Both the position numbers and the translations under genes were made by a program. The notes under the pieces were generated by a model. It made no database searches and had not been told where the DNA came from. It saw only the letters and a program-made list of their open reading frames with translations. A DNA stretch of 32,000 nt from Ruminococcus albus 7 = DSM 20455 (GTDB taxonomy: Bacteria > Bacillota > Clostridia > Oscillospirales > Ruminococcaceae), in NCBI RefSeq assembly GCF_000179635.2, contig NC_014833.1, positions 1,800,001 through 1,832,000 on the forward strand, read 5' to 3'. Below are positions 15,814-29,544 of the stretch, in pieces; the stretch's first letter is position 1; every line of letters starts with the position of its first letter.

Positions 15814-16006
15814 CGAGGACAGCATCTATCCGTCAACACTAACAACGGATACCGAGCATCAAACAACCGATACCCGCCTTGAAAGAAACGTATCGAGCCG
15901 TCCGCCCGAGGACAGCATCTATCCGTCAACACGAACAACGGATACCGAGCATCAAACAACCGATACCCGCCTTGAAAGAAACGTATCTAGCCGTCCGCCC
16001 GAGAAC
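15814..16006. repeat. 93-bp tandem direct repeat, 2 full copies plus 7 nt of a third
   Basis: Copy 1 (15814-15906) and copy 2 (15907-15999) differ at 2 of 93 positions (T/G and G/T). The next 7 nt, cgagaac, restart the unit. The repeat is GC-richer than the surrounding AT-rich spacer. Confidence 0.9.
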
Positions 16007-16040
16007 AAAAAGACCGCAGGTGCGTCGGATGCACCTGCGG
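16004..16040 (-). terminator. Rho-independent terminator of the 96-aa gene
   Basis: 10-bp GC-rich stem ccgcaggtgc / gcacctgcgg with a 7-nt loop. On the minus strand tctttttgtt follows. Confidence 0.65.
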
Positions 16041-16102
16041 TACTTAAAGCTCTTTTTATCTCTCCAAAATATTTTTTTTACACACGCAATAATCGACTAA
16101 GG

Positions 16103-16393
16103 TCATATATCCCATTCTGTGCGGACAGTGTACCTTGCAGGGAAGCGAAGTTTTGATATCGCGTGCATTGAAGCGATGGTGCCGTTGTACTTGAAACTCA
16201 CTATCCTTACTTTACTTTCTTTTAAACTTTTGGTAGCAAGATCCCATGCACCGATCTCATCAAGTGCTTTCATGTATATTTCCGTAATTCCTTTTAACTC
16301 GTCTGATTTTTCCGCGTGAATACGCAGTTTCCCTCTCCTGAAGCAGTCAGGCTCTACGCTAGGATGCTTCATCATTAATTCGTTTCTGTTCAT
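16103..16393 (-). CDS. Hypothetical protein (96 aa)
   Basis: A good RBS (AGGAGA, 8-nt spacing) and its own terminator are present. I recognise no family. Confidence 0.6.
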   Translation of the reverse strand: MNRNELMMKHPSVEPDCFRRGKLRIHAEKSDELKGITEIYMKALDEIGAWDLATKSLKESKVRIVSFKYNGTIASMHAISKLRFPARYTVRTEWDI

Positions 16394-16756
16394 ATTATCA
16401 TCTCCTGTGAAACTATTTCTCCCTTTTCATTAGTCGCCGAATTATCAGTTCACAATTTTTACATTTTAACTTTTCGCTTCTCTCGAATGCATATTTTAAC
16501 ATAAAAAAACGACCTCGTCAAGAGTTATTAATTATTTTTGTTGATTTAAACAAATGTCAAGGTAATAGTACCTGCTTTTTAGGTACAATAAGCTTTTTTT
16601 ATGACAGGTAATCTCAAAAAATCCCGAAACAAATCCGTTTCAATAATAACAAGACGTTTTTATGGACAACTGTGATCATATGCGTCAAATATGATAGATA
16701 TTTACCAAAAATTGCGGGGTATTAGTTTTAAATTTTTTGATATTCATAAATAAACG

Positions 16757-16785
16757 TTGAATTTGCTCAAAATTTCTGTTAAAAT
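16757..16785 (+). promoter_or_regulatory. Candidate promoter of the EAL gene
   Basis: TTGAAT, a 17-nt spacer, then TGtTAAAAT (extended -10), about 47 nt upstream of the TTG start. Confidence 0.35.
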
Positions 16786-16832
16786 AATATAAATTAAAAT
16801 GTTCGATCCTATCATAAAAGGGGGGATTGTAG

Positions 16833-18914
16833 TTGGATAAAAAGGATATAGATGCTCTTTGTGCGCTTTTTAATGAATTATCAGAAGTGCATAATGAAGC
16901 TGAACTGGAAAGATCGGTGGAGAATAATATAGGTATTTTTGGTGATCATGATATCACCAAACTGAAAATAGCCCTTTATCTGCTTGGCGAAAGAATGCTC
17001 ACTGTCGATGCTGAAAACAGGGATGCATTAAGAGCGCGTCGTATTGCCTGCCTGACTGATGCGGAAAAAGCGGAGATGCAGAAGGTCGAGGAGATAATTG
17101 ATAAAAATCTACTTAAATACTATTTCCAGCCTATCATAAGTGCATCCACCGGCGATATATATTCATACGAAGCACTCATGCGTTCAGCTGCCGATCCGTC
17201 AATAACCCCTTTTCATATACTCAAATATGCAGGCCTTAATGACAGGCTTGATGATATCGAGAGAGCTACGTTTTTTAATATACTTAAGATAATCGAGAGC
17301 GATAAGGAAAAGTTCGGCGGAAAAACAGTATTCATAAATAGTATTCCCAATGTTTGTCTGGGCGAGGCTGATGTAGAGATGATATCAGCTATCCTTAGTA
17401 AATATTCGGATATGGTAGTGGTAGAACTTATAGAAAGCGCTGAAGCTGACGAAGCTCAACTCATAAGGCTGAAGGATACATTCAGCAGTATGGATATTAA
17501 AATAGCTGTCGATGATTATGGCACAGGATACTCAAATGTTAGCAATCTACTCAGGTACAAACCCGATTTTGTAAAGATCGACCGTTCGCTTATAAGCGAA
17601 ATCAACTGTGATTCCAATAAGAAGCATTTTGTACGTGATATCATAGAATTCTGCCACGATAATGATATACTTGCACTTGCAGAGGGCGTTGAGACCGATA
17701 TGGAAATGAAGACCCTGATAATAATGGGTATCGATCTCATCCAGGGTTATTATACTGCCAGACCTGCACCTGAACCGATCTCTGCAATACCTTATGAGAT
17801 AAGACAGGAGATAAGGCGTTTTCAGCAGCAGCGTCAGGACGGCGAGGAGACCCATGTATATAAGGTCGAGGGTACTGAACGTATATTGCTGGAAAAAATG
17901 AAAAAGCACGGATACAAATGTATACGAATACTGGCAACCGAAGATGACGGGGATATTTCCATTGTTGGCAATTCATCTCTTGAAACTCAGGTGCATATAG
18001 AGATCGACAGCGGATTCAAAGGCAGAGTCAATCTTGAAAGCGCCAATCTTTCCAATACCAAGAATCGTCCGTGCATTCAGCTGGCAGAGGACTGCGTGGT
18101 GGAGTTATCTGTCCTTGGTGATTGCAAGCTGCAAAACGGCGGTATCATCGTTCCCGAAAGCTCCGAACTGACGTTTACAGGACTTGGTTCGCTTAATATA
18201 AAGGTTCATGATCCTTCCTTCTATGGAATAGGTGCACATCTTGACGAACGTCATGGCAGGATCAGTTTCAGTGCGGATGTTACTTTCGTTATTGAAGCTT
18301 ACGGACAGTTCGGCACCTGTATCGGTTCGGGCCTTGGCGGTGAGATAGACATACACAGGGGTATTTTCAATATATCCATGAATTGTAATAACGGTGTAGC
18401 GATCGGTTCTATGACGGGTAATACTGATCTTGATATACGCTACTGCGGTATCGAGGTCAACTGCTACAGTCTTAAAGGTACTATTGTCGGCAGCCGTGAT
18501 GGTACTGCTGAGCTTATCCTGCACAGCATGAGCCTGAGGTGCAGCGTCAGCGGCAAGGAAACGGTCTGTGTAGGTTCTTTGCAGGGTCCTACAAATGTTA
18601 CGATCGAAAATTCCAACTTTGCCTCAGATGTCAGATCTGATAAAATGACAGTGTTTGGCTCGCTTTATAACAAGAGCATCGTCACGGTGCATAATATCTC
18701 CATGAATATTGAGGCAGGCGGTCAGGAGGCTTACATTATAGGCGGTCTGAACGGAAACACTGTATTTGATTGCACTGAAGCTGATATGAAGATAGTCCTG
18801 AATTCCGGGTTCAACAGTATTACTTCAGCACAGGGCGATGATCTTGTAGTCGGAGACGGAAGATATCAAATAAGAGTAAACGGTCAAAATTTCCGGCTTA
18901 TCCCCGAAAAGTGA
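16833..18914 (+). CDS. EAL-domain c-di-GMP phosphodiesterase fused to a C-terminal 28-residue-repeat (beta-solenoid-like) domain
   Basis: TTG start behind AAAGGGGGG. EAL signatures are YFQPI, YEALMR, FINS, ELIES, DDYGTGYS, KIDRS, EGVET and QGYY. The C-terminal approximately 250 aa consists of exact 28-aa repeats ending in hydrophobic-G-S/G. There is no TM segment and no signal peptide. Confidence 0.9.
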   Translation: MDKKDIDALCALFNELSEVHNEAELERSVENNIGIFGDHDITKLKIALYLLGERMLTVDAENRDALRARRIACLTDAEKAEMQKVEEIIDKNLLKYYFQPIISASTGDIYSYEALMRSAADPSITPFHILKYAGLNDRLDDIERATFFNILKIIESDKEKFGGKTVFINSIPNVCLGEADVEMISAILSKYSDMVVVELIESAEADEAQLIRLKDTFSSMDIKIAVDDYGTGYSNVSNLLRYKPDFVKIDRSLISEINCDSNKKHFVRDIIEFCHDNDILALAEGVETDMEMKTLIIMGIDLIQGYYTARPAPEPISAIPYEIRQEIRRFQQQRQDGEETHVYKVEGTERILLEKMKKHGYKCIRILATEDDGDISIVGNSSLETQVHIEIDSGFKGRVNLESANLSNTKNRPCIQLAEDCVVELSVLGDCKLQNGGIIVPESSELTFTGLGSLNIKVHDPSFYGIGAHLDERHGRISFSADVTFVIEAYGQFGTCIGSGLGGEIDIHRGIFNISMNCNNGVAIGSMTGNTDLDIRYCGIEVNCYSLKGTIVGSRDGTAELILHSMSLRCSVSGKETVCVGSLQGPTNVTIENSNFASDVRSDKMTVFGSLYNKSIVTVHNISMNIEAGGQEAYIIGGLNGNTVFDCTEADMKIVLNSGFNSITSAQGDDLVVGDGRYQIRVNGQNFRLIPEK

Positions 18915-18931
18915 TAAGAATATGTTTTTTC

Positions 18932-18964
18932 GCAGGAGGCGCAGCCGCGTCCTCCTGCTTTTTC
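18932..18964 (+). terminator. Terminator after the EAL gene
   Basis: Stem gcaggagg...cctcctgc followed by tttttc. It lies immediately before the RBS of the next gene. Confidence 0.6.
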
Positions 18965-18980
18965 TAAAGGAGAACAGCTT

Positions 18981-19322
18981 ATGAGAACTAATTTTAATAT
19001 CGAAAACACAGATACGATAGATACATTGGCTTATAGGGAACAGACTAAGATGATGATATTGCAGATAGCTGATGGTATGGACTGGTCCGACATGGAAAGA
19101 CATTTCTCGCTGCTGCGTGAGAAACTGGATACCTATATATGGTATATAGATTCAAAACAGTATGAAGATAAGTATCCCGATGTAGAAAGGATAGAGTTAA
19201 GGGTGACATTTCTTTTCAAGGAGCCTGATGTATGTATAAAGCTGCTTGAAAAGGCAGGAGAGGTGCTTCACCGCGTTTTTGAAAACTCTGCATTGATAGT
19301 TGAATGCGGAGAAAGGGAATAA
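18981..19322 (+). CDS. Hypothetical small acidic protein (113 aa)
   Basis: RBS AAAGGAGAA is well placed. No family is confidently recognised. Confidence 0.65.
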   Translation: MRTNFNIENTDTIDTLAYREQTKMMILQIADGMDWSDMERHFSLLREKLDTYIWYIDSKQYEDKYPDVERIELRVTFLFKEPDVCIKLLEKAGEVLHRVFENSALIVECGERE

Positions 19323-19374
19323 AGTCTGACTAAATATTATATAGGATATGTTAAGGTGATTATAGTATATGAGA

Positions 19375-19403
19375 TTGCAAAAGTTACGGATGTATGGTAT
19401 ACT
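19375..19403 (+). promoter_or_regulatory. Candidate promoter of the aldo-keto reductase gene
   Basis: TTGCAA, a 17-nt spacer, then TGgTATACT. Confidence 0.4.
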
Positions 19404-19446
19404 CATAACGTTGATAGGGTAATAAATGATAAGGAGATAATTTGAT

Positions 19447-20442
19447 ATGTATACTGCAAATGAACATAGATATGACAAAATGTTATATAACCGCTGTGGT
19501 AAAAGCGGCCTGAAACTGCCTGCTATATCACTTGGACTATGGCAGAATTTCGGATACGGTTCAGTATTTGCGAATGTTGAGGAAATGTGCCGCACTGCTT
19601 TTGATCTTGGTATAACTCACTTTGATCTTGCAAATAACTACGGTCATCCCTATAATGGCTCAGCTGAGGAAAACTTTGGCAGAGTACTTGACAGGGGACT
19701 GAGGGCATACCGCGATGAGCTGGTGATATCTACAAAGGCAGGCTATGAGATGTGGGATGGTCCCTATGGTGACAGGAACGGCTCACGTAAGTATCTCACA
19801 GCATCACTGGATCAGAGCCTAAAGCGCATGGGTCTTGATTATGTGGATATTTTCTATCATCATGTATTTGACCCTGATACTCCGCTGGAGGAGACTGCTC
19901 TTGCACTTGATAATGCTGTAAAGCAGGGCAAGGCACTTTATGTTGGTATATCAAATTACAATAAGGCGCAGACAGAGGAGATGCTTTCGATATTCCGTGA
20001 GCTGAGAACTCCTTTTATAGTGAACCAGCCGAGTTTTTCTATGCTAAACAGATGGGTAGAGGACGATAAGCTTGATACCTTCTGTGTGGAAAACGGTATT
20101 GGTCTTGCTGTGTTCTCGCCGCTTTATCAGGGCTTCCTGACAGACAGATATTTAAAGGGTATTCCGGAAGATTCCCGTGTGGGAAAGGGCAATACCTGGA
20201 TAGGAGATCAGCTTACTCCACAAATGCTGAAAAAACTCAACTCACTCAATGATATCGGTGTTTCACGCGGACAGAAGCTGTCACAGATGGCTGTTGCGTG
20301 GCTGTTACATAACAAGGCTGTTGCCACTGTACTTGTAGGTGCCAGCAGACCTCAGCAGATCATTGATAATGTTGGTGCACTCGATAACCTTGATTTCACT
20401 GCTGAAGAGATCTCTGAAATAGAGAAGGTTCTTGCAGAGTGA
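19447..20442 (+). CDS. gpr: Aldo/keto reductase, YghZ/Gpr-type (L-glyceraldehyde-3-phosphate reductase-like)
   Basis: From memory it is near-collinear with E. coli YghZ: YNRCGKSGLKLPAISLGLWQNFG, GITHFDLANNYG, SAEENFGR, YRDELVISTKAGY, GSRKYL.ASLDQSLKRMGLDYVDIFY, GKALYVGISNY. Confidence 0.9.
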   Translation: MYTANEHRYDKMLYNRCGKSGLKLPAISLGLWQNFGYGSVFANVEEMCRTAFDLGITHFDLANNYGHPYNGSAEENFGRVLDRGLRAYRDELVISTKAGYEMWDGPYGDRNGSRKYLTASLDQSLKRMGLDYVDIFYHHVFDPDTPLEETALALDNAVKQGKALYVGISNYNKAQTEEMLSIFRELRTPFIVNQPSFSMLNRWVEDDKLDTFCVENGIGLAVFSPLYQGFLTDRYLKGIPEDSRVGKGNTWIGDQLTPQMLKKLNSLNDIGVSRGQKLSQMAVAWLLHNKAVATVLVGASRPQQIIDNVGALDNLDFTAEEISEIEKVLAE

Positions 20443-20488
20443 TCTCATTCGGGTGCTTGAAAATGCTTTCTTGAGGGCCTTATATAAA

Positions 20489-20535
20489 ATTACCGCCGCC
20501 TTTTGCGTGAACAGCAAGGGCGGCGGTAATTTTTT
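20489..20535 (+). terminator. Rho-independent terminator
   Basis: 12-bp stem attaccgccgcc / ggcggcggtaat followed by ttttt. Confidence 0.7.
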
Positions 20536-20713
20536 GTCTTAAACTTGTAAGATATCCCAAAAACAAATGTAAATAATTAATGAACCTGTATTTTGTTTAA
20601 ATATTATTTCTATTATAATAAAAAATAATAACAAAATTTATAGTAAACTATTTCAGCAAAATGAATAAATACAGATGTATAAGATGTGAATTTCTAACAA
20701 AAAACAGAAAACT

Positions 20714-20742
20714 TTTGAAATTTCGAATGCTATACTTTATAG
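20714..20742 (+). promoter_or_regulatory. Candidate promoter of the pilus operon
   Basis: TTGAAA, a 17-nt spacer, then TATAGT. An overlapping TGcTATACT extended -10 lies at 20727-20735. Confidence 0.3.
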
Positions 20743-20824
20743 TAAGTTGGAACAAAAAGCATTGAAGTTAACCTACAATAAATAGGCATAGTGCTTAAAT
20801 GATTGTCTATTATAGTTAAAAGAG

Positions 20825-23800
20825 GTGAGGACAGTGAGAAGTTTAAGAGGCAGTAATATCAAAAAACGTGTGTCGGCACTTTCTATGGCAGCGATGATAG
20901 TTATTGAACAGCTTGCATACATAGATCCGATGATAGCATATTCTGCCAGATCGGCATCTTCTAATGGATCGTCAGATTTTCCCGCAGTGACTTCAAGCGG
21001 TGTATCCGCATCACTTGAACATAAAGATCAGCTGGTAGATAACGGTGACGGTACTTACACATTTACTTCTGATATTACTTCAGCTTATTCATATCACGAT
21101 GAAAGCGGCGACAGACTTCGTTTTCAGTCGGATACTTATGAATTCGATAAGCCCGGCAAATATCTCATTGAGTTGTGGGGCGGTGACGGTGGTGACGGAA
21201 GTTCGTTGTTCCCACTGAGCTTTAAAGCAGGTTCAGGCGGTAAGGGCGGTTTCGTGTACGGTGTGCTTACTGTTACTCCTGAAGATGTGGATGCTAAGAA
21301 AAAGCTTTACTACGAAATAGGAAGTAAAGGACTTAGCCAGACAAGAAGTATCGCAGGCGGCGGTACAGGCGGTATCGGCGGCGGTGCTGGCGATATAGCT
21401 GTATTCTCGGTAGGTGCAGGCGGCGGCGGTGGCGGCGGCGCAGGCGCAGCCCTTCACACACTGCCCGGTATATTCGGCGGTGACGGACGTGCAAACGGCG
21501 GCGAAGGCGGAACATTCTTAAGCAGCCTTAGCGATACCCCGAATATCAAAGCATTTACAAGCGGTACTTATTACGCAGGTGAAAACGGCAAGACTTCGGG
21601 TACTAAGGCAGCCTATGTAGGACAGGGCGGTACAGACCGTCCCGGTGAACTGGTAGAAAGTTTCATAGGTTTCCTTGAAGCTTCATCCTATCCTAACGAC
21701 TGGCAGAAGTCATACCACCCAGATGCTGACAGAGGTATCGGCGGTGCAAGTAACTTCCGAGGCGGCGGCGGTTCTTCCTATGTAGGTGCTTACAGTTATT
21801 TCGAAGAGAACTCGAAAGGTTCTGATGATCTCTTTGTTGAGAGAGACGGAAACACAAACGCTGATGTGGGCGGTGCTGTAGTTATAAGATATCTTCCCGA
21901 TAGCAACAGCGATTACGCTTATCTTGATAACATCACAGTAAGCGGTGGAGTTTCAGAATATTTCGATATCGTATCAATGAACTGCACAAACAATAAGTAT
22001 AATGCTTCAAGCAAGAAAATGCAGTTATTGAATGTTTCATCTACAAAAACAGATAATAACTTCACAGTTAACGGTTCGGTAGCACCTGTACCCGATGGTC
22101 TTGACAAAGGTCAGGCGCAGGATACCCTTACAGTTTCAATAACTGTAAGACCGAAGAAAGCATTCTTCGGCGGACTTAACGTACCTGTATTCACAGGTGA
22201 CTTTGCTGTAAAGGACAGTGATAATTCAAAGAATTCGACTATATCTTATACCGATAATGTTACCCATGTAAACGTGCCTTACAATATCAGTATAACTGCT
22301 AAGAACTCAACAAAGCAGACAGGCGATACTGTATTAAAAGGTGATCTGTTTGAGCAGGAGATAGCTTATGAAGCAGATGATCCGATGCAGGATTTCATAA
22401 GCGGCATAACCTATAGAATAGATGATATTTCTGCAAATAGTTTCAGCGACACTATAACATCTGCTGATGTATCAAACGGCAGAAAAGCATTCTCGGTGAA
22501 AGCAACACTTGTTCCAAAGAGTGGTACTGCGGCACAAGTTGGTGAAGCAGGCAACCCGACAGTAACTAAGACAGTATATGTTCGATGCATAAGTGACAGT
22601 GTGCTGGATGTTGACGGATATGAGATCAATGCAGAAAAGTCATTGGCTTATAATGAAACCGATGATACTTACGATCTTACCGTTGATATGAACGTTGAGA
22701 ATCAGGATGCTAAATCATTCAGTATTATAGATCCTATTGAGAGTGAAAATGTACTTGATATTGTTTATAATGCAACCTCAAATCTCAGTAGTTCTAATGA
22801 TTATGTTAGTATAAGCAGAAATCAAGATAATAATAGCAATAATACTAAATATTCCGGTACGCTTCAACCCGGTATCTATTATGTTGAGGTATGGGGCGGT
22901 GATGGCGGAAGTGGATTCAATGATCCAACCAATAATCTTTCAAGTGCTGTTAGTAATAATACATATGGCGGTTATGGAGGAAAAGGTGGTTTCATTAGTG
23001 GATATGTCACTTTGGTTAGCGAGAAGCAGCTGGAAATTGTGTTAGGTCCCAAAGGAATTAAGGGTGATAGTTCAAATCCTGCAGGCAAAGGAGGTAAAGC
23101 AACATATGTAAATATTGGTGATGAGTCTGATGATATGACCTTTGTTGCAGGCGGAGGTGGAGGAGGTTCTACCTATTTGAAATATAGTGGAACCGATCAG
23201 AATAGTCATATGGGATACTCTGGTAATGATGGTTATAGAATTGGTGGAACCTCAGTTTATAAAGGTAGTTCTTCTAATGGAAATGATTATTACGATGTAA
23301 GTAAATATGATGGAGCAGATGCTATTTCTGTTAGTATAAGTACCGGTTTAAATCCTTATCGTAGAATTAGTAATTTCAATAATAATATTGCCAGTTATTT
23401 TGCTAAGGGTGGTTACAGCGAAATAGGTAGTGGTGTTCAAACTGAGATTGCTGATATAATGTATATTGACAATGGTGTGCATGATATTACAGTTGATCTT
23501 GGTCTATATGAATATGTTAATTATTTTAATAGTGGCATTGTTAGCAATTATTATATAAGCCAGTGGACAAACAAGAGTGGAGATCCAGAATACGTTTCTA
23601 ATGATGATGAGTACGAACGTGTTTCATCCTATAAAGGTACAACTAAGACTTCTATAGGAACAACAGGAGCGGTAAAAATCACCAGGCTTGGCGTACGCAC
23701 CAGACATAACTATGGTGGTACTGAAGTTGGAGTAGATACTTCTAATTCTGTTACACTTGCAAACATTGAAGAACAGATCAAAAATGATTATGCTAACGCT

Positions 23801-26518
23801 AATTGCTATGACAGTTTTACGTTAACAGGCAACTTTACAGATTATTTTGATCTGCAGGCTAATTCAAACTACTCAATCGTAGATAACATTGGATCACATC
23901 AGTTTGCTCTTTCAAATGCTAATGTACAATCAACAGCATCAACAACTACTAACGGGTATACTCAAAGTACTCTGCCGGGCTATACATTTAAAAAGTATGA
24001 TTATGTGTACAAGCTTAAAGGCAACGATTCAGTTACATTCAAACTAAAACCGATAAACGGCTTCTTAGGCGGTAACGATGTACCACTGCTAAACAGCGCA
24101 ACACTGACACATCATAACAATACTGTTGAAGATGATGATACAAAGTCTATCGTAGCTGACAACGCAACCGACTTCGCAAATGTCAGACTTGCATCCGAAA
24201 CACTGGCAGATGAAACCTACATAACTGTAGATACATCGCCAATATTCGTTGAATACGGCGGAACGCTTTCGGAAAGTGATTTCACTAATACAAAGAAGAC
24301 ATTTGAAAGCAGCAATCTTGCAGATGACTATGCACGGTTTACAGATTTTGGATATGAGCCGGATCTGAATAATGCAATAACAGCGGATACAAATGTTATT
24401 GTTACAGCAGGGCTTGAACCAACATCTGATAATGCAGCAAGAGCAACGGTGATCGATCCCGTAAGCAGGGCAGAGAGAAACTTCAGCGTACCTGTTTACG
24501 TGAAGTATCCTATCACAACTACCCTGACTAACGTTACAGCTGCTAAGGCTGACGGAACTCAATTCCCGTCAAGCGGTGAGTTCTTCCCCACATCGGTGGA
24601 TGACAGAGATCTGACGATCGTACTCAGTGCAGTTGACGGTTATGATCTGCCCGCTGCAGACGATGTTACAGTGACAGGTGCAGATGCATCTATCGAAAAG
24701 CGCGACGGTAATATTTACGTTACTATCCCGCGAAGCACTATAACAGGTGTGGTCACCATAACAGCATCAGGAGTGCAGGTAACACATAAGGTACATTATA
24801 TGTACGAGTACTACGATCCGCTGTCAGAGCAGATCTCGGTACAAAGTGTAGTTGATACGCATGAGTATAAAAACGGTGATTTCCTCGAGGGTCTGAATTT
24901 CCCGAACGTAACCGGTGCGTATCCCGTGGGATACGATGACTACGACTGGGATTTCGGACAGACCGAATACGATGATGACAGCGGCAAATACAAAATGGGT
25001 CAGGAGGATATCTACATAATAGGTACCTACGTTCCCATAACCTATAAGCTGGTGATAAACTACGTTCTAAAAGATACGGATAACCAAATTCTCGAAACGT
25101 ACACCTCACCCGACAGGACACAATACCATGAAGATACTGATACCTTTGATATAGCACTTACAAAGGGTGCAGACTTCTTTATAAAGTCCCCCGATATCAC
25201 GGGTTACGTAACAGATACCCCGTACGTTTCGGGCAAGGTAGATAATGCGTTTATCGATTCTCTTAATGAAACTATCACTATTGGTGAAAAGACATACAAG
25301 AGCAAGACGATCAATGTATATTATGAACCAAACCCTGATAACGTGATCGTACACTTCGTCAAGTGTGATGTCAGAGGAGTTCCGATCGAAAATGATGGCA
25401 ATACTATAACCAGAATCACAGAGGCAATTGGTGTTGGCGTTGACTATGATTTGGAATCGGAAATACTATCCAATATTACTAATGATGAATACGAGATAAT
25501 CAAACGTACAAGACAAACAGATACGGCCGAAGAAGAGGTGACTACCGTTTCGGGTACTATCACAGATGCAGATCAGATCGAAACATACTACGTTTACTAT
25601 AGAGCAAAACCCGGAAAAGTTACGGTTGAGTTCTACAAAGAGCGTGATGATGCATCACCTGACAAATCCAAGACTTGTGAGGTTGGCAGAGAGTATGGCT
25701 ATAACGCTGATCTTAAAGAATTTGATTCTCTCCCAAGAGCCGTAAAGGATAACTGCAGACTTGTTGGCTGGGAAACCGAAGACGGCAAGCTTATCGAGGA
25801 CGATACGATAGTCGAGGGCGAGGATGGTACTAGAATAAAGCTGTACGCTAAATGGGCATCAATGAAGGTTACTATACACGTTGATTATCGATACGCTGAG
25901 AATGTTGAGAATGAAACGATTCGCGGAACTGAGGCAGATACACCATTCACAAAAGAGTATCTCTACGGACAGAGCTATAAGATAGTATCTGGTCATATAC
26001 CTTATTACGAAGCTGTTCCCGGAGTTGTTGAGGGTATAGCCTTGGAAGATAAAACCGAAAAGGTATACTATAAAGACGGCTCAGGTGAGATAAGCATCAT
26101 AGTTGATGTTTACAGCGAGAGCAGTTTGAGTAATACCGCAAATGCTCACAAGCTTAAAGGCGGAACATTCGAGCTGTACAACTCGAGCGGTGAATGCATC
26201 AGCACCAAGCAGAACACTGATGGTTCTGTTACATGGACAAATGTTGAAGTTCGCCTGACAGACGGTGAAAAATACACAGTCAAGTGTACAGATCCACCCG
26301 TGGGATATGCTCCCGGTGAGATAGAGGTGACAGTTCAGGGTACAGAGACCTATGAAGAAATGTTCCTCGGCAAAACCAAATTCAGAATGCCTTTCGCAGG
26401 CAGCACACCGATGACAGGTTATACCGTCGTTGGTACATCCACAATGTTACTTGCTGTTTTCCTGCTGTTCCTTAATATGCGCAGTAAAGCAGAAGAAAAA
26501 AGAATAAAAAACAATTAG
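20825..26518 (+). CDS. Giant sortase-anchored surface/pilus-tip adhesin (two glycine-rich modules, MucBP/Listeria-Bacteroides-repeat-like domains, CnaB/SpaA-like domain, MPFAG sorting signal)
   Basis: 1897 aa with a GTG start. The GTG at 20834 is an equally good start behind AGAGGTGAGG. The N-terminus is basic then hydrophobic. WGGDGG...GGKGGF...GGGGGG modules occur twice. RLVGWETEDGKLIEDDTIVEGEDGTRIKLYAKW is a Listeria-Bacteroides-type repeat. The C-terminus has MPFAG, a hydrophobic helix and RSKAEEKRIK. Confidence 0.9.
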   Translation: MRTVRSLRGSNIKKRVSALSMAAMIVIEQLAYIDPMIAYSARSASSNGSSDFPAVTSSGVSASLEHKDQLVDNGDGTYTFTSDITSAYSYHDESGDRLRFQSDTYEFDKPGKYLIELWGGDGGDGSSLFPLSFKAGSGGKGGFVYGVLTVTPEDVDAKKKLYYEIGSKGLSQTRSIAGGGTGGIGGGAGDIAVFSVGAGGGGGGGAGAALHTLPGIFGGDGRANGGEGGTFLSSLSDTPNIKAFTSGTYYAGENGKTSGTKAAYVGQGGTDRPGELVESFIGFLEASSYPNDWQKSYHPDADRGIGGASNFRGGGGSSYVGAYSYFEENSKGSDDLFVERDGNTNADVGGAVVIRYLPDSNSDYAYLDNITVSGGVSEYFDIVSMNCTNNKYNASSKKMQLLNVSSTKTDNNFTVNGSVAPVPDGLDKGQAQDTLTVSITVRPKKAFFGGLNVPVFTGDFAVKDSDNSKNSTISYTDNVTHVNVPYNISITAKNSTKQTGDTVLKGDLFEQEIAYEADDPMQDFISGITYRIDDISANSFSDTITSADVSNGRKAFSVKATLVPKSGTAAQVGEAGNPTVTKTVYVRCISDSVLDVDGYEINAEKSLAYNETDDTYDLTVDMNVENQDAKSFSIIDPIESENVLDIVYNATSNLSSSNDYVSISRNQDNNSNNTKYSGTLQPGIYYVEVWGGDGGSGFNDPTNNLSSAVSNNTYGGYGGKGGFISGYVTLVSEKQLEIVLGPKGIKGDSSNPAGKGGKATYVNIGDESDDMTFVAGGGGGGSTYLKYSGTDQNSHMGYSGNDGYRIGGTSVYKGSSSNGNDYYDVSKYDGADAISVSISTGLNPYRRISNFNNNIASYFAKGGYSEIGSGVQTEIADIMYIDNGVHDITVDLGLYEYVNYFNSGIVSNYYISQWTNKSGDPEYVSNDDEYERVSSYKGTTKTSIGTTGAVKITRLGVRTRHNYGGTEVGVDTSNSVTLANIEEQIKNDYANANCYDSFTLTGNFTDYFDLQANSNYSIVDNIGSHQFALSNANVQSTASTTTNGYTQSTLPGYTFKKYDYVYKLKGNDSVTFKLKPINGFLGGNDVPLLNSATLTHHNNTVEDDDTKSIVADNATDFANVRLASETLADETYITVDTSPIFVEYGGTLSESDFTNTKKTFESSNLADDYARFTDFGYEPDLNNAITADTNVIVTAGLEPTSDNAARATVIDPVSRAERNFSVPVYVKYPITTTLTNVTAAKADGTQFPSSGEFFPTSVDDRDLTIVLSAVDGYDLPAADDVTVTGADASIEKRDGNIYVTIPRSTITGVVTITASGVQVTHKVHYMYEYYDPLSEQISVQSVVDTHEYKNGDFLEGLNFPNVTGAYPVGYDDYDWDFGQTEYDDDSGKYKMGQEDIYIIGTYVPITYKLVINYVLKDTDNQILETYTSPDRTQYHEDTDTFDIALTKGADFFIKSPDITGYVTDTPYVSGKVDNAFIDSLNETITIGEKTYKSKTINVYYEPNPDNVIVHFVKCDVRGVPIENDGNTITRITEAIGVGVDYDLESEILSNITNDEYEIIKRTRQTDTAEEEVTTVSGTITDADQIETYYVYYRAKPGKVTVEFYKERDDASPDKSKTCEVGREYGYNADLKEFDSLPRAVKDNCRLVGWETEDGKLIEDDTIVEGEDGTRIKLYAKWASMKVTIHVDYRYAENVENETIRGTEADTPFTKEYLYGQSYKIVSGHIPYYEAVPGVVEGIALEDKTEKVYYKDGSGEISIIVDVYSESSLSNTANAHKLKGGTFELYNSSGECISTKQNTDGSVTWTNVEVRLTDGEKYTVKCTDPPVGYAPGEIEVTVQGTETYEEMFLGKTKFRMPFAGSTPMTGYTVVGTSTMLLAVFLLFLNMRSKAEEKRIKNN

Positions 26519-26530
26519 GAGGTTCTTATT

Positions 26531-28351
26531 ATGAAAAAATTGTACAAGCGTTCCACAGCAATAGCAGTATCGGCATTAATGATGTCGCAGATGATTCCTT
26601 ACAATGTGTTTGCATCGGAAAATCCAACCGGTCCTAACTCGCTGACTATCCATCCGTATATCCTGAGTGACGCAAAATATGCAGAAGCAAAGCAAGCTAA
26701 CAAAACTCCTAGTGGTTTAGGTACTACCGATGCTATAGCAGCTGATACAGATTTAGCTGATAATTACGATGCAACTGAATCACAGGATGTTACATTTACT
26801 CTTACTGAGGTTACCAGTACAGGTGCTGCAAAACAAGGTGGTATTAAAATTACAACTCCTTCAAAGTCATTTTCATCTCTGCCTGATGGTTACTACAAGA
26901 TAACACCTAATAATACTTCTACAGATGCTAACTTAAAAGAAGTTGAATCATTCTTCATCCAGCTTCCTTCGGGTTCAAACAGAGATGTGTACATTTATCC
27001 TAAGCTGACAGATAACCATGATAATGGTGATCATAACACCCCTGGTACACTTCATGATGCAACTGATCCTACCTCAAAGGATAAGCACTCGATAGAGCTT
27101 ACCAAGAAACTTAGTGGTGACGCAGCGTGGACTAGTGGTATGAGTGCTACATTCCAGTTATATTCTCAGGATGCTATGGGCAACTGGGTAGACGGCGGTA
27201 CACATGATACTGATGCTAATGGTAAAGTCATAGTTGATGGTCTGCCTTATGGTACATACTATATGTATGAAACATCTGCTGTAACTGGTTATCTTAAGAA
27301 TAGCAGTCCTGTAAAGTTCGTCCTCGATGGTACAGCGAGCTCGGTTCAGAAGGCTGACCTTACAAATGATAAGAAGCTTACAGTTTCAAAGGCAATAGAT
27401 GTTGATGGTAAGGGACATACCTATAACTGGACGATCACAGCTGATGTTCCTGTAAATTCTGAAAACCTGATGAGTTACTCCATAACCGATACTTTTGAAA
27501 ACCTTAAGGAAGTTAATGTAGTAAGCGTCTTTTCAGGAAGTGATGAACTGGATGAAGATGTTGATTATACTGTTTCGACAAATGGTAATAAATTGACAGT
27601 TGAGATCGATGATCCTTCATCACTTGAATCGGATGCTGATATTGTTATAAAGGTAGAATCAAAATTAGTTGATGGTTTCACATCAGGTTCTGAGGCTACA
27701 AATACATCTTCGATAGATTATCAGTATGCTTATGATCCTGATAATGATAGCAGGATCCCATCTCAGATACCCAATGACATACCAAATATACCCAATCCCA
27801 ATCCCGATGATCCCGATCCCACTGATCCCAATAATCCTCCTGTTGTAAGTTATCCTGATGGTACTGAAGAAGAACTCCATAATACCGAAACAGTAACACC
27901 TGCAACTATTACAATTTCAAACTATGCGACAGGAACAACCACTGAACTGAAAAAAAGTAAATATAGTATAACAGGTTGCAGCAATCATGATGATGACGAT
28001 GCCAGTGATATTGTTACTCTTGAAAACCTCGCACCCGGTGTCTATGAGATCACTCAGCTCGGTACACAGGAAAACTACAAAATCGATGAAAACGTTAAGA
28101 CTATCTTTATTGACAAGAATGGTAAAGTTTATGAAGGTGACACAGCTGATTCAACAAAAGAAATTACAAATAAAAAAATAATATTCTATAATGATCCAAT
28201 TTCTGATAACTTCCAGCTGCCTTTCACCGGTACTACTGCAACTATCGTATTCACCATAGGCGGTATCGCTATAATGGCAGGCGCTGCATTCTTCATCATA
28301 GTTCTCTTCAAGAAGAAGGACGAAGAGGAAGAAGAGCAGAACAAAGCATAA
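26531..28351 (+). CDS. Major (shaft) pilin: signal peptide, YPK pilin motif, E-box, LPFTG cell-wall sorting signal
   Basis: AGGAGG RBS. The signal peptide ends at VFA-SE. The pilin motif VYIYPKLTD has YPK at 26996-27004. The E-box-like sequence is YYMYETSAVTGY. LPFTG lies at 28217-28231, followed by a TM helix and a KKKDEEEEE tail. Confidence 0.88.
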   Translation: MKKLYKRSTAIAVSALMMSQMIPYNVFASENPTGPNSLTIHPYILSDAKYAEAKQANKTPSGLGTTDAIAADTDLADNYDATESQDVTFTLTEVTSTGAAKQGGIKITTPSKSFSSLPDGYYKITPNNTSTDANLKEVESFFIQLPSGSNRDVYIYPKLTDNHDNGDHNTPGTLHDATDPTSKDKHSIELTKKLSGDAAWTSGMSATFQLYSQDAMGNWVDGGTHDTDANGKVIVDGLPYGTYYMYETSAVTGYLKNSSPVKFVLDGTASSVQKADLTNDKKLTVSKAIDVDGKGHTYNWTITADVPVNSENLMSYSITDTFENLKEVNVVSVFSGSDELDEDVDYTVSTNGNKLTVEIDDPSSLESDADIVIKVESKLVDGFTSGSEATNTSSIDYQYAYDPDNDSRIPSQIPNDIPNIPNPNPDDPDPTDPNNPPVVSYPDGTEEELHNTETVTPATITISNYATGTTTELKKSKYSITGCSNHDDDDASDIVTLENLAPGVYEITQLGTQENYKIDENVKTIFIDKNGKVYEGDTADSTKEITNKKIIFYNDPISDNFQLPFTGTTATIVFTIGGIAIMAGAAFFIIVLFKKKDEEEEEQNKA

Positions 28352-28396
28352 TTAATTAGTTAAAACAATGATAAGGTTCTCCGTGAACTGAACGCT

Positions 28397-28436
28397 ATAA
28401 GTGCCGCTGCTTTGTCGGCGGCACTTATAATTTTTC
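28397..28436 (+). terminator. Intra-operon hairpin (possible partial terminator) between pilin and sortase genes
   Basis: 11-bp stem ataagtgccgc / gcggcacttat with a 10-nt loop, then aa-ttttt. Confidence 0.45.
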
Positions 28437-28453
28437 AATAGGAGGAAAAACTG

Positions 28454-29272
28454 TTGGGCAAGAAGAAAAACAAAAAGAAACGATTAGGCATTATATTGCT
28501 CTTGCTCCTGTTCCTGATAGGATTGGTCTTGTTCCTTTACCCGTTTATCAGCAGGATCTTTATAAACAAAAAAGTCGATGAAAATATACAGAATCTCAAA
28601 GATGACCTGAACAGGATCATAAACGAATCTATTGAAAACGGAGATCTCAATATTGAAGACCTGCCTCTTGATGAAGAGGGCAGACCCGCACCGTATGAAA
28701 GGATAAAGTATGATATAGAGGAGGAGGAGAGTCAGCCTTACCTCGATGACCTTTATCAGTATATGCGCAGGCGCAACAGGGAACTCTTTGAGTCATCGCA
28801 GTCGCAGCTTGATTCGCAGGAATCATATAAGTACCCTGAATTCGATCTGAAGTCTTACGGTCTTAATACAGAAAGTATAGGTACTCTTGAAATATCAAGA
28901 CTGGGATTGAAGCTGCCTGTATTTCTGGGTGCAAACGATTATAACCTTACAGCGGGTTGTGGTCACCTGACTTATACAACTTATCCCATAGGCGGTTATA
29001 ACACAAATTGTGTTATTGCTGTGCACAGGGGACTTGGCGGATCTGATTTTCTGAGATATGTAGAAAAGCTTGAAAGCGGCGATGTGGTGCGTGTACAGAA
29101 TTACTGGTATACACTGGAATACAAAGTCGTAGATCATGTGATCGTTGATCCTGATGAAGTGGATTCCGTACTTATACAGCCGGGCAAGGATATGCTCACA
29201 CTTTATACCTGTCATCCCTATGGTATAAACAACCGAAGGTACCTGGTATACTGTGAGAGAGTTATAAAATAA
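28454..29272 (+). CDS. srtC: Class C (pilin-polymerising) sortase
   Basis: TTG start behind AGGAGGA. There is an N-terminal TM anchor. The catalytic His is in VIAVHRG, the Cys in TLYTCHPYG and the Arg in NRRYLVYCERV. Confidence 0.9.
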   Translation: MGKKKNKKKRLGIILLLLLFLIGLVLFLYPFISRIFINKKVDENIQNLKDDLNRIINESIENGDLNIEDLPLDEEGRPAPYERIKYDIEEEESQPYLDDLYQYMRRRNRELFESSQSQLDSQESYKYPEFDLKSYGLNTESIGTLEISRLGLKLPVFLGANDYNLTAGCGHLTYTTYPIGGYNTNCVIAVHRGLGGSDFLRYVEKLESGDVVRVQNYWYTLEYKVVDHVIVDPDEVDSVLIQPGKDMLTLYTCHPYGINNRRYLVYCERVIK

Positions 29273-29295
29273 GGATCTATTGATTAAAACAAAAT

Positions 29296-29336
29296 GAGTG
29301 TCATTCTCCGATGTAAAGGAGAACGGCACTCTTTTT
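29296..29336 (+). terminator. Terminator of the pilus operon
   Basis: 14-bp stem gagtgtcattctcc / ggagaacggcactc (one G-U pair, one mismatch) with an 8-nt loop, then ttttt. Confidence 0.6.
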
Positions 29337-29498: not shown

Positions 29499-29515
29499 CT
29501 ATAGAATAAAGTAAG

Positions 29516-29544
29516 ATCGGGCTTTTTAAGCCCGATTTTTTTTT
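29516..29544 (+). terminator. Terminator of tRNA-Leu
   Basis: Stem atcgggctt / aagcccgat followed by a 9-nt T-run. Confidence 0.7.

What the first reader, a model, noticed from the sequence alone, without database searches (positions are those of the whole stretch)
21131..23692. Pilus-tip protein carries two polyglycine-rich modules resembling the Pfam Gly_rich / ALK-LTK glycine-rich domain
Two segments share an ordered motif series. Module 1 (aa ~103-358, nt 21131-21898) reads KPGKYLIELWGGDGGDG ... GSGGKGGFVYGVLTV ... KKLYYEIGSKG ... GGGTGGIGGGAGDIAVFSVGAGGGGGGGAGAA ... GGAVVIRYL. Module 2 (aa ~676-956, nt 22850-23692) reads QPGIYYVEVWGGDGGSG ... YGGYGGKGGFISGYVTL ... QLEIVLGPKG ... GKGGKATYVNIG ... 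TFVAGGGGGGSTY ... GAVKITRL. As I recall it, this is the pattern of the 'glycine rich protein' family (PF12810). That family includes the extracellular glycine-rich domain of the ALK/LTK receptor kinases. In published ALK/LTK structures the Gly runs form packed polyglycine-II helices around a ligand-binding scaffold. I know of no characterised sortase-assembled pilus whose tip adhesin is built from such domains. Known tips use vWFA, thioester or lectin-like modules instead. If the assignment is right, this would be a new adhesin class presented on a Gram-positive pilus in a fibre-degrading organism.
Basis: partly seen in the sequence, partly recalled or inferred. Interest (0 to 1): 0.8.

Follow-up and report, generated by a model that had tools for sequence, protein, structure and literature searches.

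The report
Glycine-rich-domain tip protein of a Ruminococcus pilus
A giant surface protein of the rumen cellulose-degrader Ruminococcus albus 7 carries two copies of the glycine-rich domain also found in the human ALK/LTK receptors and in phage tail fibres, and it sits in a three-gene pilus operon in the position of a tip adhesin, a combination I found described in no paper.

Summary
ORF 20825-26518 (1897 aa) is Ruminococcus albus 7 protein ADU22078/WP_013498243. Both modules match Pfam PF12810 (ALK_LTK_GRD) above the curated cut-off. A shuffle control shows the ordered motifs exceed what composition explains.

An AlphaFold model of module 2 (pLDDT 72, Gly motifs about 90) returns only ALK/LTK glycine-rich-domain structures as top PDB matches. 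Superposition is loose (TM 0.25-0.33). The polyglycine-II lattice could not be checked.

The pilus-tip reading is well supported by context. The gene is followed by a shaft pilin (YPK motif, E-box, LPFTG) and a class C sortase. The protein ends in a SpaA/CnaB domain plus an [L/M]PxAG sorting signal and has no pilin motif. This arrangement holds in every clade locus examined, while relatives without the signal have no pilin or sortase.

New points:
- Module 1 of this strain carries two in-frame deletions that remove a conserved core hairpin.
- Module 2 lies in a 1.36-kb cassette replaced between R. albus strains that are otherwise 91-99% identical.
- The same scaffold is a receptor-binding module of phage tail fibres.

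The domain call already exists in databases. The pilus-tip use appears undescribed. Ligand and function remain untested.

The parts
20715..20743 (+). Promoter-like site (TTGAAA-17-TATAGT) in the AT-rich 382-nt gap upstream of the tip gene
   Evidence: Consensus scan, 10 of 12 matches; sequence read. This is a consensus match only.
20825..26518 (+). Tip-pilin candidate gene, 1897 aa from GTG 20825. The more likely start is GTG 20834 after the RBS AAGAGGTGAGG. It is R. albus 7 ADU22078.1 / WP_013498243.1.
   Evidence: ORF; identity to the database protein; RBS and start.
20996..21130 (+). Conserved strand pair ('LVDNGDGTYTFTS...') that precedes GRD1. A counterpart ('AYNETDDTYDLTV') precedes GRD2.
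   Evidence: 65% mean pairwise identity across the family; invariant columns; predicted strands.
21131..21898 (+). GRD module 1 (PF12810). It is the most conserved domain of the family, but truncated in this strain.
   Evidence: Pfam 27.8 bits against GA 24.5; 66% mean pairwise identity; length 256 aa against a family median of 325.
21416..21426 (+). Junction of in-frame deletion 1 (32 aa, 'GGGYSAVYL...KVLMIAG' lost), at an 11-nt repeat in Gly codons
   Evidence: BLASTN against L020/L022 shows an 11-nt overlap of adjacent alignment pieces and 96 nt missing; protein alignment.
21761..21771 (+). Junction of in-frame deletion 2 (27 aa, 'GGGGGAGFAGGSGGMQNEPLDARNVGG' lost), at an 11-nt repeat
21899..22621 (+). 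Domain X1 (about 240 aa, no Pfam match), ending in 'FFGGLNVPVF'. It is a paralogue of X2.
   Evidence: No Pfam family reaches the curated score; X1 against X2 by BLASTP gives E 2e-04.
22850..23692 (+). GRD module 2 (PF12810), hypervariable between strains
   Evidence: Pfam 36.4 bits. AF2 model of aa 600-975: pLDDT 72.4, pTM 0.76. Foldseek top 11 PDB hits are all ALK/LTK GRD. Family lengths 152-337 aa, 34% mean identity.
22681..24038 (+). Replaced cassette (end of the pre-GRD2 strand pair, GRD2, first part of X2). It has no DNA similarity to the alleles in R. albus relatives whose flanks are 87-99% identical.
   Evidence: BLASTN of window 16001-29500 against L020 and L022; per-region protein identities.
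23693..24469 (+). Domain X2 (about 260 aa, no Pfam match), ending in 'GFLGGNDVPLL'
24779..26080 (+). Stalk region of about five ~85-aa repeats ('VHYMYEYYD', 'YKLVINYVL', 'VIVHFVKCD', 'VTVEFYKER', 'VTIHVDYRY'). No Pfam hit here, but homologues are annotated MucBP / Flg_new / Muc_B2 in this part.
   Evidence: Repeats read by eye; precomputed Pfam domains of homologues; no hit in the query. The repeat assignment is an inference.
26081..26374 (+). C-terminal SpaA/CnaB-type prealbumin-fold domain typical of pilins
   Evidence: PF17802, 27.9 bits against GA 23.1.
26387..26515 (+). Sorting signal: MPFAG (family consensus [L/M]PxAG), then 26 residues including a hydrophobic span, then the RSK..KR tail
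   Evidence: The spacing from motif to first basic residue is 26, the same as for LPFTG in the shaft pilin. 55 of 57 clade members keep the signal.
26531..28351 (+). Major (shaft) pilin, 606 aa: YPK pilin motif (aa 160-162), E-box YYMYETSAVTGY, LPFTG anchor
   Evidence: PF17802 and PF00746; TIGR04226 43.7 bits (above its 30-bit cut-off) and a sub-threshold NF033902 match, 69.6 vs 95 bits; motifs.
28396..28429 (+). 14-bp stem-loop with a T-run between the pilin and sortase genes, a possible partial terminator
   Evidence: This is a consensus match only.
28454..29272 (+). Class C (pilin-polymerising) sortase, 272 aa: N-terminal membrane anchor and catalytic TLYTC
   Evidence: NF033745, 171.2 bits against cut-off 160; PF04203; motif.
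29513..29539 (+). Terminator-like hairpin that closes the operon

Best explanation
The region is the first gene of a three-gene sortase-pilus operon (tip protein, shaft pilin, class C sortase) of Ruminococcus albus 7.

Proposed mechanism (inferred):
- The 1897-aa product is exported and held in the membrane by its C-terminal sorting signal.
- The class C sortase cleaves the MPFAG motif and joins the protein to the lysine of the YPK motif of the first shaft pilin.
- Because the large protein has no pilin motif of its own, it can only cap the fibre.

Proposed architecture:
- The C-terminal SpaA/CnaB domain and the repeat region act as a stalk.
- The N-terminal half is a tandem duplication of the unit [strand pair + glycine-rich domain + ~250-aa domain X]. 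It presents two GRDs of the ALK/LTK/phage-tail-fibre type at the distal end as binding modules.
- GRD1 is the conserved module of the family, but is partly deleted in this strain.
- GRD2 lies in a recombining cassette that differs between otherwise near-identical strains. I read it as the specificity-determining or antigenically exposed part.

Shown here: domain membership, gene order and its conservation, sorting-signal features, the cassette mosaic, and the deletions.

Inferred: tip location, adhesion, and a ligand-determining role for GRD2. The ligand is unknown.
For: GRD identity:
- PF12810 scores above GA for both modules.
- The shuffle control excludes a composition artefact.
- The module 2 model has pLDDT 72.4 and pTM 0.76, with the Gly motifs in blocks of about 90.
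- The top 11 PDB matches are all ALK/LTK GRD/TG (E 1.8e-4 to 1.8e-2, prob 0.95-1.0). The next hit has E 0.19 and prob 0.06.
- 23 BFVD hits at E<=1e-3 are mostly 'glycine-rich domain-containing', 'minor tail' or 'virion structural' proteins of phages and giant viruses.

Pilus context:
- The sortase is class C: NF033745 171 bits, above the cut-off of 160.
- The shaft pilin has YPK, an E-box and LPFTG.
- The tip protein has a SpaA domain above GA, a sorting signal spaced exactly as in the pilin, and no YPK.
- The genes are 12 nt and 102 nt apart, with a promoter-like site before and a terminator-like hairpin after.

Conservation:
- Seven other Ruminococcus species-level loci (L005-L011), three R. 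albus relatives (L020-L022) and a distant member (P0106, L023) all show the GRD protein ending in [L/M]PxAG, followed by a pilin and then one or two sortases. The pilin carries LPFTG in all 9 whose C-terminus I read.
- Five loci of GRD giants without a sorting signal have neither pilin nor sortase.

Specificity cassette:
- GRD2 is 27-33% identical between proteins that are 82-100% identical elsewhere.
- There is no DNA similarity over 22681-24038, inside flanks that are 87-99% identical.

Precedent:
- Phage Pam3 gp24 and S16 gp38 use a TNF-like plus Gly-rich domain with a conserved Gly stem and a hypervariable tip to bind host receptors.
- Pam3 gp24 superposes on the C. elegans ALK ectodomain 7LIR (PMC9608196).
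Against: - No experiment shows a pilus, a tip location or binding.
- Foldseek TM-scores to ALK/LTK are low (0.25-0.33, rmsd 13-15 A), apart from one 140-column local match at 4.2 A.
- The family profile does not reach ALK/LTK sequences in the PDB at E<=10.
- The GRD1 model failed (pLDDT 40.8), and GRD1 here lacks a conserved strand pair. It may be non-functional in this strain.
- The sorting motif has Ala where canonical signals have Thr. Its cleavage by this sortase is assumed.
- The signal peptide is atypical: E, Q and D lie in the hydrophobic region.
- ALK GRD binds a protein cytokine, which gives no guide to a ligand here.
Confidence: 0.7

Rival explanations
1. The large protein is a monomeric cell-wall-anchored adhesin. 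A housekeeping sortase attaches it directly to peptidoglycan. It merely shares an operon with a pilus and is not part of the fibre.
For: The [L/M]PxAG motif differs from the pilin's LPFTG, so a different sortase could act on it. No housekeeping sortase is visible in the window to test this. The protein is very large for a pilin.
Against: There is a strict correlation between the sorting signal and an immediately downstream pilin plus sortase. Every locus examined with the signal has them, across at least 9 lineages. None of the 5 loci without the signal has them. A 12-nt gap suggests co-translation with the pilin. The protein has a C-terminal SpaA/CnaB domain as in pilins. From general knowledge, a tip-specific variant motif is known from Bacillus cereus BcpB (IPNTG against LPVTG).
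Confidence: 0.17
2. The GRD modules are structural or spacer elements, or decaying remnants. Binding is done by other parts of the protein: the X domains or the MucBP/Flg_new-like repeats.
For: GRD1 of this strain has lost 59 residues, including a conserved hairpin, yet the ORF is kept intact. Homologues carry MucBP, Muc_B2 and Flg_new annotations in the C-terminal half. X1 and X2 are uncharacterised.
Against: GRD1 is the most conserved region of the family: 66% mean identity against 31-42% for the other large regions (X1, GRD2, X2, middle, repeats, CnaB). This argues for a selected function. GRD2 shows the cassette replacement typical of exposed binding or antigenic modules. The same scaffold is the receptor-binding part of phage fibres. 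From general knowledge, N-terminal distal placement is where pilus tips carry their adhesive domains.
Confidence: 0.1
3. The PF12810 matches are low-complexity artefacts. The Gly-rich stretches are flexible linkers with no relationship to ALK/LTK.
For: HMMER applied a large bias correction (27.9 bits) in the GRD1-HMM comparison with GRD2. Neither the single sequence nor the family profile hits ALK/LTK chains. TM-scores are low.
Against: Both modules exceed Pfam's curated cut-off. None of 1000 shuffles approaches the real score. Non-Gly positions (W, Y, E, NDWQ, the final 'GAV.I.RL') are invariant across the family. The Gly motifs are modelled at pLDDT about 90 between confident strands. ALK/LTK structures are the only significant PDB matches.
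Confidence: 0.03

Closest known systems
ALK/LTK extracellular glycine-rich (TG: TNF-like + GlyR) domain, Pfam PF12810; PDB 7NX1, 7MZY, 7LRZ, 7N00, 7NWZ
   Same: Both modules belong to the same Pfam family, above the curated threshold. These structures are the only significant PDB fold matches of the module 2 model. The modules share the pattern of beta-strands alternating with GGxGG / GGGGGG motifs.
   Different: This is a bacterial, secreted, sortase-anchored protein with no kinase. The Gly runs are shorter and module 2 has a large insertion (aa ~800-945). There is no detectable direct sequence similarity to ALK/LTK chains. Superposition is loose (TM 0.25-0.33). ALK/LTK bind the ALKAL cytokines, and no such ligand is expected in the rumen.
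Phage tail-fibre tip adhesins with polyglycine-rich receptor-binding domains (Salmonella phage S16 gp38, PDB 6F45; cyanophage Pam3 gp24)
   Same: A distal adhesin at the end of a fibre, built from a conserved Gly-rich lattice with hypervariable exposed parts. Pam3 gp24 has a TNF-like plus Gly-rich domain that resembles the ALK ectodomain (PMC9608196). Many phage 'glycine-rich domain', 'minor tail' and 'virion structural' proteins match the module 2 model. Module 2 also hits phrog_18810 (E 4.9e-06).
   Different: The fibre here is a covalent sortase-assembled pilin polymer, not a phage tail fibre. No trimerisation helix or chaperone gene is seen. In this protein variability takes the form of whole-cassette replacement, not only loop hypervariability.
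Two-component sortase pili with a dedicated tip-pilin sorting signal (Bacillus cereus BcpA-SrtD-BcpB) and tip-first operons (Lactobacillus rhamnosus GG spaCBA-srtC1)
   Same: An operon of tip protein, shaft pilin with YPK motif, E-box and LPxTG, and a class C sortase. The tip lacks a pilin motif and carries a sorting motif distinct from that of the shaft. The comparison with BcpB and SpaC rests on general knowledge.
   Different: Known tips use vWFA, thioester, lectin-like or CnaA/B modules. No Pfam model of those kinds matches this protein; only PF12810 and PF17802 do. At about 1900 aa the tip is much larger than characterised tip pilins. No basal pilin gene is present.
Giant N-terminal-GRD secreted proteins of Oscillospiraceae without a sorting signal (e.g. 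P0059, P0067, P0093)
   Same: A homologous GRD at the N-terminus (aa ~40-360), length 1.7-4.2 kaa, and MucBP/Flg_new repeats.
   Different: They have no [L/M]PxAG signal or membrane anchor and no adjacent pilin or sortase. Some lie next to integrase, Mob, resolvase or prophage lysis genes, and next to a GLUG-motif protein.

Membership tests
Pfam PF12810 ALK_LTK_GRD (glycine-rich domain) | Score at or above the curated gathering threshold (24.5 bits) | tested here: met
   Whole protein 50.5 bits; module 1 27.8 bits; module 2 36.4 bits.
Pfam PF12810 ALK_LTK_GRD (glycine-rich domain) | Ordered motif series beyond glycine-rich composition | tested here: met
   The GRD1-family HMM scores the query's GRD2 at 12.3 bits, against a maximum of 1.2 bits in 1000 shuffles. 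BLASTP of module 1 against module 2 gives E 9e-06.
Pfam PF12810 ALK_LTK_GRD (glycine-rich domain) | Fold resembling solved ALK/LTK GRD (TNF-like sandwich with Gly-rich insertions) | tested here: inconclusive
   Module 2 model: the 11 best PDB hits are all ALK/LTK (prob 0.95-1.0). TM is only 0.25-0.33, with one local match at rmsd 4.2 A over 140 columns. The module 1 model was unusable (pLDDT 40.8).
Pfam PF12810 ALK_LTK_GRD (glycine-rich domain) | Packed polyglycine-II helix lattice | not testable with these tools
The only indirect sign is that the Gly motifs lie in blocks of pLDDT about 90 and are neither helix nor strand in DSSP.
Pfam PF12810 ALK_LTK_GRD (glycine-rich domain) | Complete core in both modules | tested here: not met
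   Module 1 of this strain lacks 32 aa and 27 aa that are present in all other family members, including the 'YSAVYL...VLMIAGGGGGG' hairpin. Module 2 is complete.
Sortase-assembled (class C sortase) Gram-positive pilus | Class C sortase encoded in the cluster | tested here: met
   NF033745 171.2 bits against cut-off 160; PF04203; TLYTC motif.
Sortase-assembled (class C sortase) Gram-positive pilus | Shaft pilin with pilin motif lysine (YPK), E-box and LPxTG signal | tested here: met
   VYIYPKL at aa 156-162, YYMYETSAVTGY, LPFTG; PF17802, PF00746, TIGR04226. Conserved in 8-9 of 9 related loci.
Sortase-assembled (class C sortase) Gram-positive pilus | Tip pilin: C-terminal cell-wall sorting signal, no pilin motif, pilin-type CnaB/SpaA domain | tested here: met
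   MPFAG, then a 26-residue hydrophobic span, then a basic tail; no YPK; PF17802 27.9 bits, above GA. The motif is non-canonical, with Ala in place of Thr.
Sortase-assembled (class C sortase) Gram-positive pilus | Conserved synteny of tip, shaft and sortase genes | tested here: met
   L005-L011, L020-L022 and L023/L024.
Sortase-assembled (class C sortase) Gram-positive pilus | Covalent polymer with this protein at the distal end | not testable with these tools
   This needs immuno-EM, western-blot ladders or isopeptide mass spectrometry.
Known pilus-tip adhesin modules (vWFA, thioester domain, lectin-like) | Presence of such a domain | tested here: not met
   Pfam scans of the whole protein and of six sub-segments at E up to 10 find only PF12810 and PF17802. 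NCBIfam finds nothing. X1 and X2 remain unassigned.

The most novel reading that the evidence does not exclude
GRD-tipped pili are a distinct adhesin class of rumen and gut Ruminococcus. In this reading, a polyglycine-lattice scaffold shared with phage receptor-binding proteins and with ALK/LTK serves as a swappable specificity cassette. GRD2 alleles exchanged by recombination would retarget the pilus to different plant cell-wall, microbial or host ligands. This would make the bacterial GRD a new family of carbohydrate- or surface-binding modules, and it would give the first function for any bacterial PF12810 domain.
Probability: 0.3. Interest if true: 0.75.

Novelty: new variant of a known kind. 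Interest (0 to 1): 0.58.

Why it matters
PF12810 domains are frequent in bacterial, protist and viral proteins. The only characterised examples I know of are the ALK/LTK receptors, plus the structurally related Pam3 gp24 phage fibre tip (PMC9608196). No bacterial member I know of has a demonstrated function.

Here the genomic context gives a concrete, testable role: the distal adhesin of a covalent pilus in a major rumen cellulose degrader. Adhesion of this organism to fibre has so far been ascribed to type IV pili, CBM37 enzymes and glycocalyx (PMC4081043 reference list).

The strain-level replacement of the GRD2 cassette offers natural specificity variants for binding studies. The shared scaffold with phage receptor-binding proteins raises the question of exchange or convergence between phage and host adhesins.

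If the fold is confirmed, the modules are small bacterial models for how polyglycine-II lattices fold and bind ligands.

Tried and rejected
- The first genome scan, with the full alignment, chose poly-Gly patterns and found no relatives. I repeated it with a non-Gly N-terminal alignment.
- The AlphaFold model of module 1 with a 28-sequence alignment gave pLDDT 40.8 and was not used for fold search.
- Sequence searches of the PDB found no ALK/LTK hit at E<=10, either with the protein or with the family profile. Only insignificant Obg/MTG2 Gly-rich matches appeared.
- A self-BLAST for the C-terminal repeats printed nothing. The repeat description rests on reading the sequence and on the annotations of homologues.
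- I considered and rejected vWFA, thioester or lectin modules in the unassigned parts, because no family reaches its curated score.
- I considered the upstream EAL-domain protein as a dedicated regulator. It is syntenic only within R. albus relatives. No query-like EAL gene lies upstream at the other species' loci; tblastn found only a weak 24% match in L006 and none in L005 or L007-L011. I left it as an observation.
- Literature searches for PF12810, the accession numbers, 'Rumal' plus sortase, and R. albus plus sortase or pilin found nothing on this locus.
Full report
**What is there**

The finding lies inside one long ORF, window 20825..26518 on the + strand (1897 aa from a GTG). An exact look-up identifies it as Ruminococcus albus 7 (ATCC 27210 / DSM 20455) protein ADU22078.1 / WP_013498243.1. 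NCBI names it 'glycine rich domain-containing protein'. UniRef mislabels it 'receptor protein-tyrosine kinase'. NCBI's start, GTG at 20834, sits just after the RBS AAGAGGTGAGG and is the more likely one.

**Is the glycine-rich-domain assignment real?**

- Pfam hmmscan gives PF12810 (ALK_LTK_GRD, gathering score 24.5 bits). The whole protein scores 50.5 bits (E 3.7e-13, two stretches). Module 1 alone scores 27.8 bits and module 2 alone 36.4 bits.
- The two modules align to each other over their first ~70 residues (E 9e-06).
- Because the sequences are glycine-rich, I ran a composition control. An HMM of module 1 from 53 homologues, leaving out the query and its two nearest relatives, scores the query's module 2 at 12.3 bits. 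The best of 1000 shuffles of module 2 reaches 1.2 bits (mean -12.6, sd 3.9).
- Non-glycine positions are invariant across the family: W, Y and E in 'YLIELWGGDGG', 'NDWQ', and the closing 'GGAVVIRYL'.

The match is not a low-complexity artefact.

**Structure**

With family alignments of about 30 sequences, AlphaFold2 failed on module 1 (aa 58-372: pLDDT 40.8). It gave a usable model of module 2 (aa 600-975: pLDDT 72.4, pTM 0.76). In that model the Gly motifs lie in 10-residue blocks with mean pLDDT 70-92. These motifs are GGDGGSG 691-697, YGGYGGKGG 714-722, AGKGGKA 753-759 and AGGGGGGS 775-782. They sit between confident beta-strands and are not disordered linkers.

Foldseek against the PDB returns ALK and LTK glycine-rich / TG-domain structures as all 11 best hits (7NX1, 7MZY, 7NX3, 7LRZ, 9G5I, 7N00, 7NWZ, 7LS0). 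E-values run from 1.8e-4 to 1.8e-2 and probabilities from 0.95 to 1.0. The next hit has E 0.19 and probability 0.06.

The superposition is loose, however: TM 0.25-0.33 and rmsd 13-15 A, with one 140-column local match at 4.2 A. Neither the protein nor the family profile hits ALK/LTK sequences directly. I could not read the model's coordinates, so the polyglycine-II lattice itself is untested.

My conclusion is that the modules are members of the PF12810 fold family with good confidence. Detailed similarity to the ALK lattice remains open.

**Architecture of the protein**

The N-terminal half is a tandem duplication of the unit [conserved strand pair + GRD + ~250-aa domain X].
- 'VDNGDGTYTFTS' precedes GRD1, and 'YNETDDTYDLTV' precedes GRD2.
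- X1 ends in 'FFGGLNVPVF' and X2 in 'GFLGGNDVPLL'. X1 and X2 align at E 2e-04 and match no Pfam family.

The C-terminal half contains about five ~85-aa repeats. They have no Pfam hit in this protein, but the corresponding part of homologues is annotated MucBP, Muc_B2 or Flg_new. After the repeats come a SpaA/CnaB prealbumin-fold domain (PF17802, 27.9 bits, GA 23.1) and a sorting signal. The signal reads MPFAG, then STPMTGYTVVGTSTMLLAVFLLFLNM, then RSKAEEKR.

**Pilus context**

Twelve nucleotides downstream lies a 606-aa pilin. It matches PF17802, PF00746 and TIGR04226 above their cut-offs; its NF033902 (SpaH/EbpB major pilin) match, 69.6 bits, is below that model's 95-bit cut-off. It has a YPK pilin motif (VYIYPKL), an E-box (YYMYETSAVTGY) and LPFTG.

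A further 102 nt downstream lies a class C sortase (NF033745, 171 bits against cut-off 160; TLYTC).

A promoter-like site at 20715-20743 and a terminator-like hairpin at 29513-29539 bracket the three genes. A 14-bp hairpin (28396-28429) lies between the pilin and sortase genes.

The large protein has no YPK motif, so if it is incorporated it can only cap the fibre. The distance from its motif to the first basic residue is 26, the same as for the pilin's LPFTG. This identifies MPFAG, rather than the nearby TPMTG, as the counterpart of LPXTG.

**Conservation of the context**

All clade members found (P0001-P0057, R. albus, R. flavefaciens and relatives) end in [L/M]PxAG-(S/G)xPxTGYTV-hydrophobic-basic. 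The exceptions are two truncated entries.

In seven other species-level genomes (L005-L011), three R. albus relatives (L020-L022) and one distant member (P0106, L023/L024), the gene is followed directly by a pilin and then one or two sortases. Of the nine pilins I read in full, all carry LPFTG and 8 carry YPK.

More distant giant proteins with a homologous N-terminal GRD but no sorting signal have neither pilin nor sortase nearby (L012, L013, L017, L018, L019). Some sit beside integrase, Mob, resolvase or prophage lysis genes and a GLUG-motif protein.

Among 76 further long representatives found by an exhaustive phmmer search, only P0106 has a sorting signal. That search gave only 157 hits at E<=1e-3 in 1.84 billion proteins.

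The sorting signal and the pilus genes therefore travel together. This is the main argument for a pilus-tip role over a free wall-anchored adhesin. The consistent Thr-to-Ala difference between shaft and tip motifs recalls the tip-specific signal of Bacillus cereus BcpB (general knowledge).

1. GRD1 is the most conserved part of the family: 66% mean pairwise identity against 31-42% for the other large regions (X1, GRD2, X2, middle, repeats, CnaB). In strain 7, however, it carries two in-frame deletions of 32 and 27 residues, each at an 11-nt repeat in glycine codons (junctions 21416-21426 and 21761-21771). They remove the conserved 'GGGYSAVYL...KVLMIAGGGGGG' hairpin and a 'GGGGGAGFAGGSGG.QNEPLDARNVGG' segment. 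The equivalent hairpin in module 2 (TYVNI...TFVAGGGGGG) is modelled at pLDDT about 90. A relative (P0002) has a different deletion at the first site. Four independent read-set assemblies carry the same strain 7 sequence. GRD1 may be impaired in this long-cultured strain.

2. GRD2 lies in a replaced cassette. Against R. albus relatives L020 and L022, DNA identity is as follows:
   - 98-99% up to position 21426
   - 87-93% for 21761-22680
   - no detectable similarity for 22681-24038
   - 91% for 24039-29449

   At the protein level GRD2 is 27-33% identical, with lengths of 165-237 aa against 281 aa, between proteins that are 82-100% identical elsewhere. Across the family GRD2 ranges from 152 to 337 aa.

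**Comparison with known systems**

The operon is a standard two-component sortase pilus. What differs is the tip. No Pfam vWFA, thioester or lectin model matches it. Instead it has two GRDs.

The closest functional precedent for a GRD as an adhesin is in phages. Cyanophage Pam3 gp24 has a TNF-like plus glycine-rich receptor-binding domain that superposes on the C. elegans ALK ectodomain (7LIR). [quoted passage not shown] In line with this, the module 2 model has 23 BFVD hits at E<=1e-3. Most are phage and giant-virus 'glycine-rich domain', 'minor tail' or 'virion structural' proteins. Module 2 also matches phrog_18810.

The pattern of a conserved Gly scaffold with variable exposed parts fits the GRD2 cassette behaviour.

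**Novelty and limits**

The PF12810 annotation is already in public databases, so the domain call is not new. I found no paper on a GRD-bearing pilus tip, on this protein, or on sortase-assembled pili in R. albus. The ruminococcal paper I opened mentions only type IV pili and sortase anchoring of ScaE. The library lacks most subscription-journal papers, so absence is not proof.

I classify this as a new variant of a known kind: a sortase pilus with an undescribed tip-adhesin module. Tip location, adhesion and ligand are inferred. The polyglycine-II lattice is unverified.

Confidence:
- About 0.9 that the modules are genuine GRD-family domains.
- About 0.7 for the full pilus-tip adhesin explanation.

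Noticed in passing
window 21416-21426 and 21761-21771: Module 1 carries two in-frame deletions (32 aa and 27 aa) relative to every other family member, each at an 11-nt direct repeat in Gly codons. A close relative (P0002) has a different deletion at the first site. This suggests that Gly-codon repeats are slippage or recombination hot spots in this gene.
   Followed up: yes
window 22681-24038: A 1.36-kb segment including GRD2 has no DNA similarity to the alleles of R. albus relatives whose flanks are 87-99% identical. This indicates allelic cassette replacement.
   Followed up: yes
window 16833-18914 (EAL), 18981-19322 (DUF6572), 19447-20442 (aldo-keto reductase): An EAL-domain (c-di-GMP phosphodiesterase-type) protein lies two genes upstream of the pilus operon and is syntenic in the R. 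albus relatives L001-L004 and L020-L022. An EAL gene also lies near the distant pilus locus L023, on the other strand. A regulatory link between c-di-GMP and pilus expression is possible but untested.
   Followed up: partly
L012, L013, L017, L018: Distant giant GRD proteins without a sorting signal share a different neighbourhood. In L012 and L017 a 478-aa GLUG-motif protein lies upstream. In all four loci, one to three small (170-290 aa) proteins follow downstream; those scanned have no Pfam match. In L017 and L018 integrase, Mob, resolvase or prophage lysis genes lie alongside. Many of these proteins end in a conserved '...G(S/N)C(T/E)VTI..GG' C-terminus. This may be a mobile or phage-associated GRD system.
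   Followed up: partly
window 28396-28429: A strong 14-bp stem-loop with a T-run lies between the shaft pilin and sortase genes. It may be a partial terminator that sets a high pilin-to-sortase ratio.
   Followed up: no
window 20825-20950: The N-terminal signal region has a basic n-region, but its 'hydrophobic' core contains E, Q and D (MAAMIVIEQLAYIDPMIAYSA). The 'I.EQ.A' pattern is conserved in the family consensus. It is not a textbook Sec signal peptide.
   Followed up: no
window 8829-13075 and 13329-14024: The surrounding genes fit a fibre-degrading Ruminococcus: a GH9 cellulase (11210-13075, -), an alpha-galactosidase (8829-10043, -) with an AraC regulator (10099-10971, -), and a GH25 lysozyme (13329-14024, -). 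None is linked to the pilus operon in other species.
   Followed up: partly
UniRef E6UHM9 and BFVD entries: Several PF12810-containing bacterial and phage proteins are auto-named 'receptor protein-tyrosine kinase' in UniRef/UniProt although they have no kinase domain. This looks like a propagated misannotation from the ALK/LTK family name.
   Followed up: no
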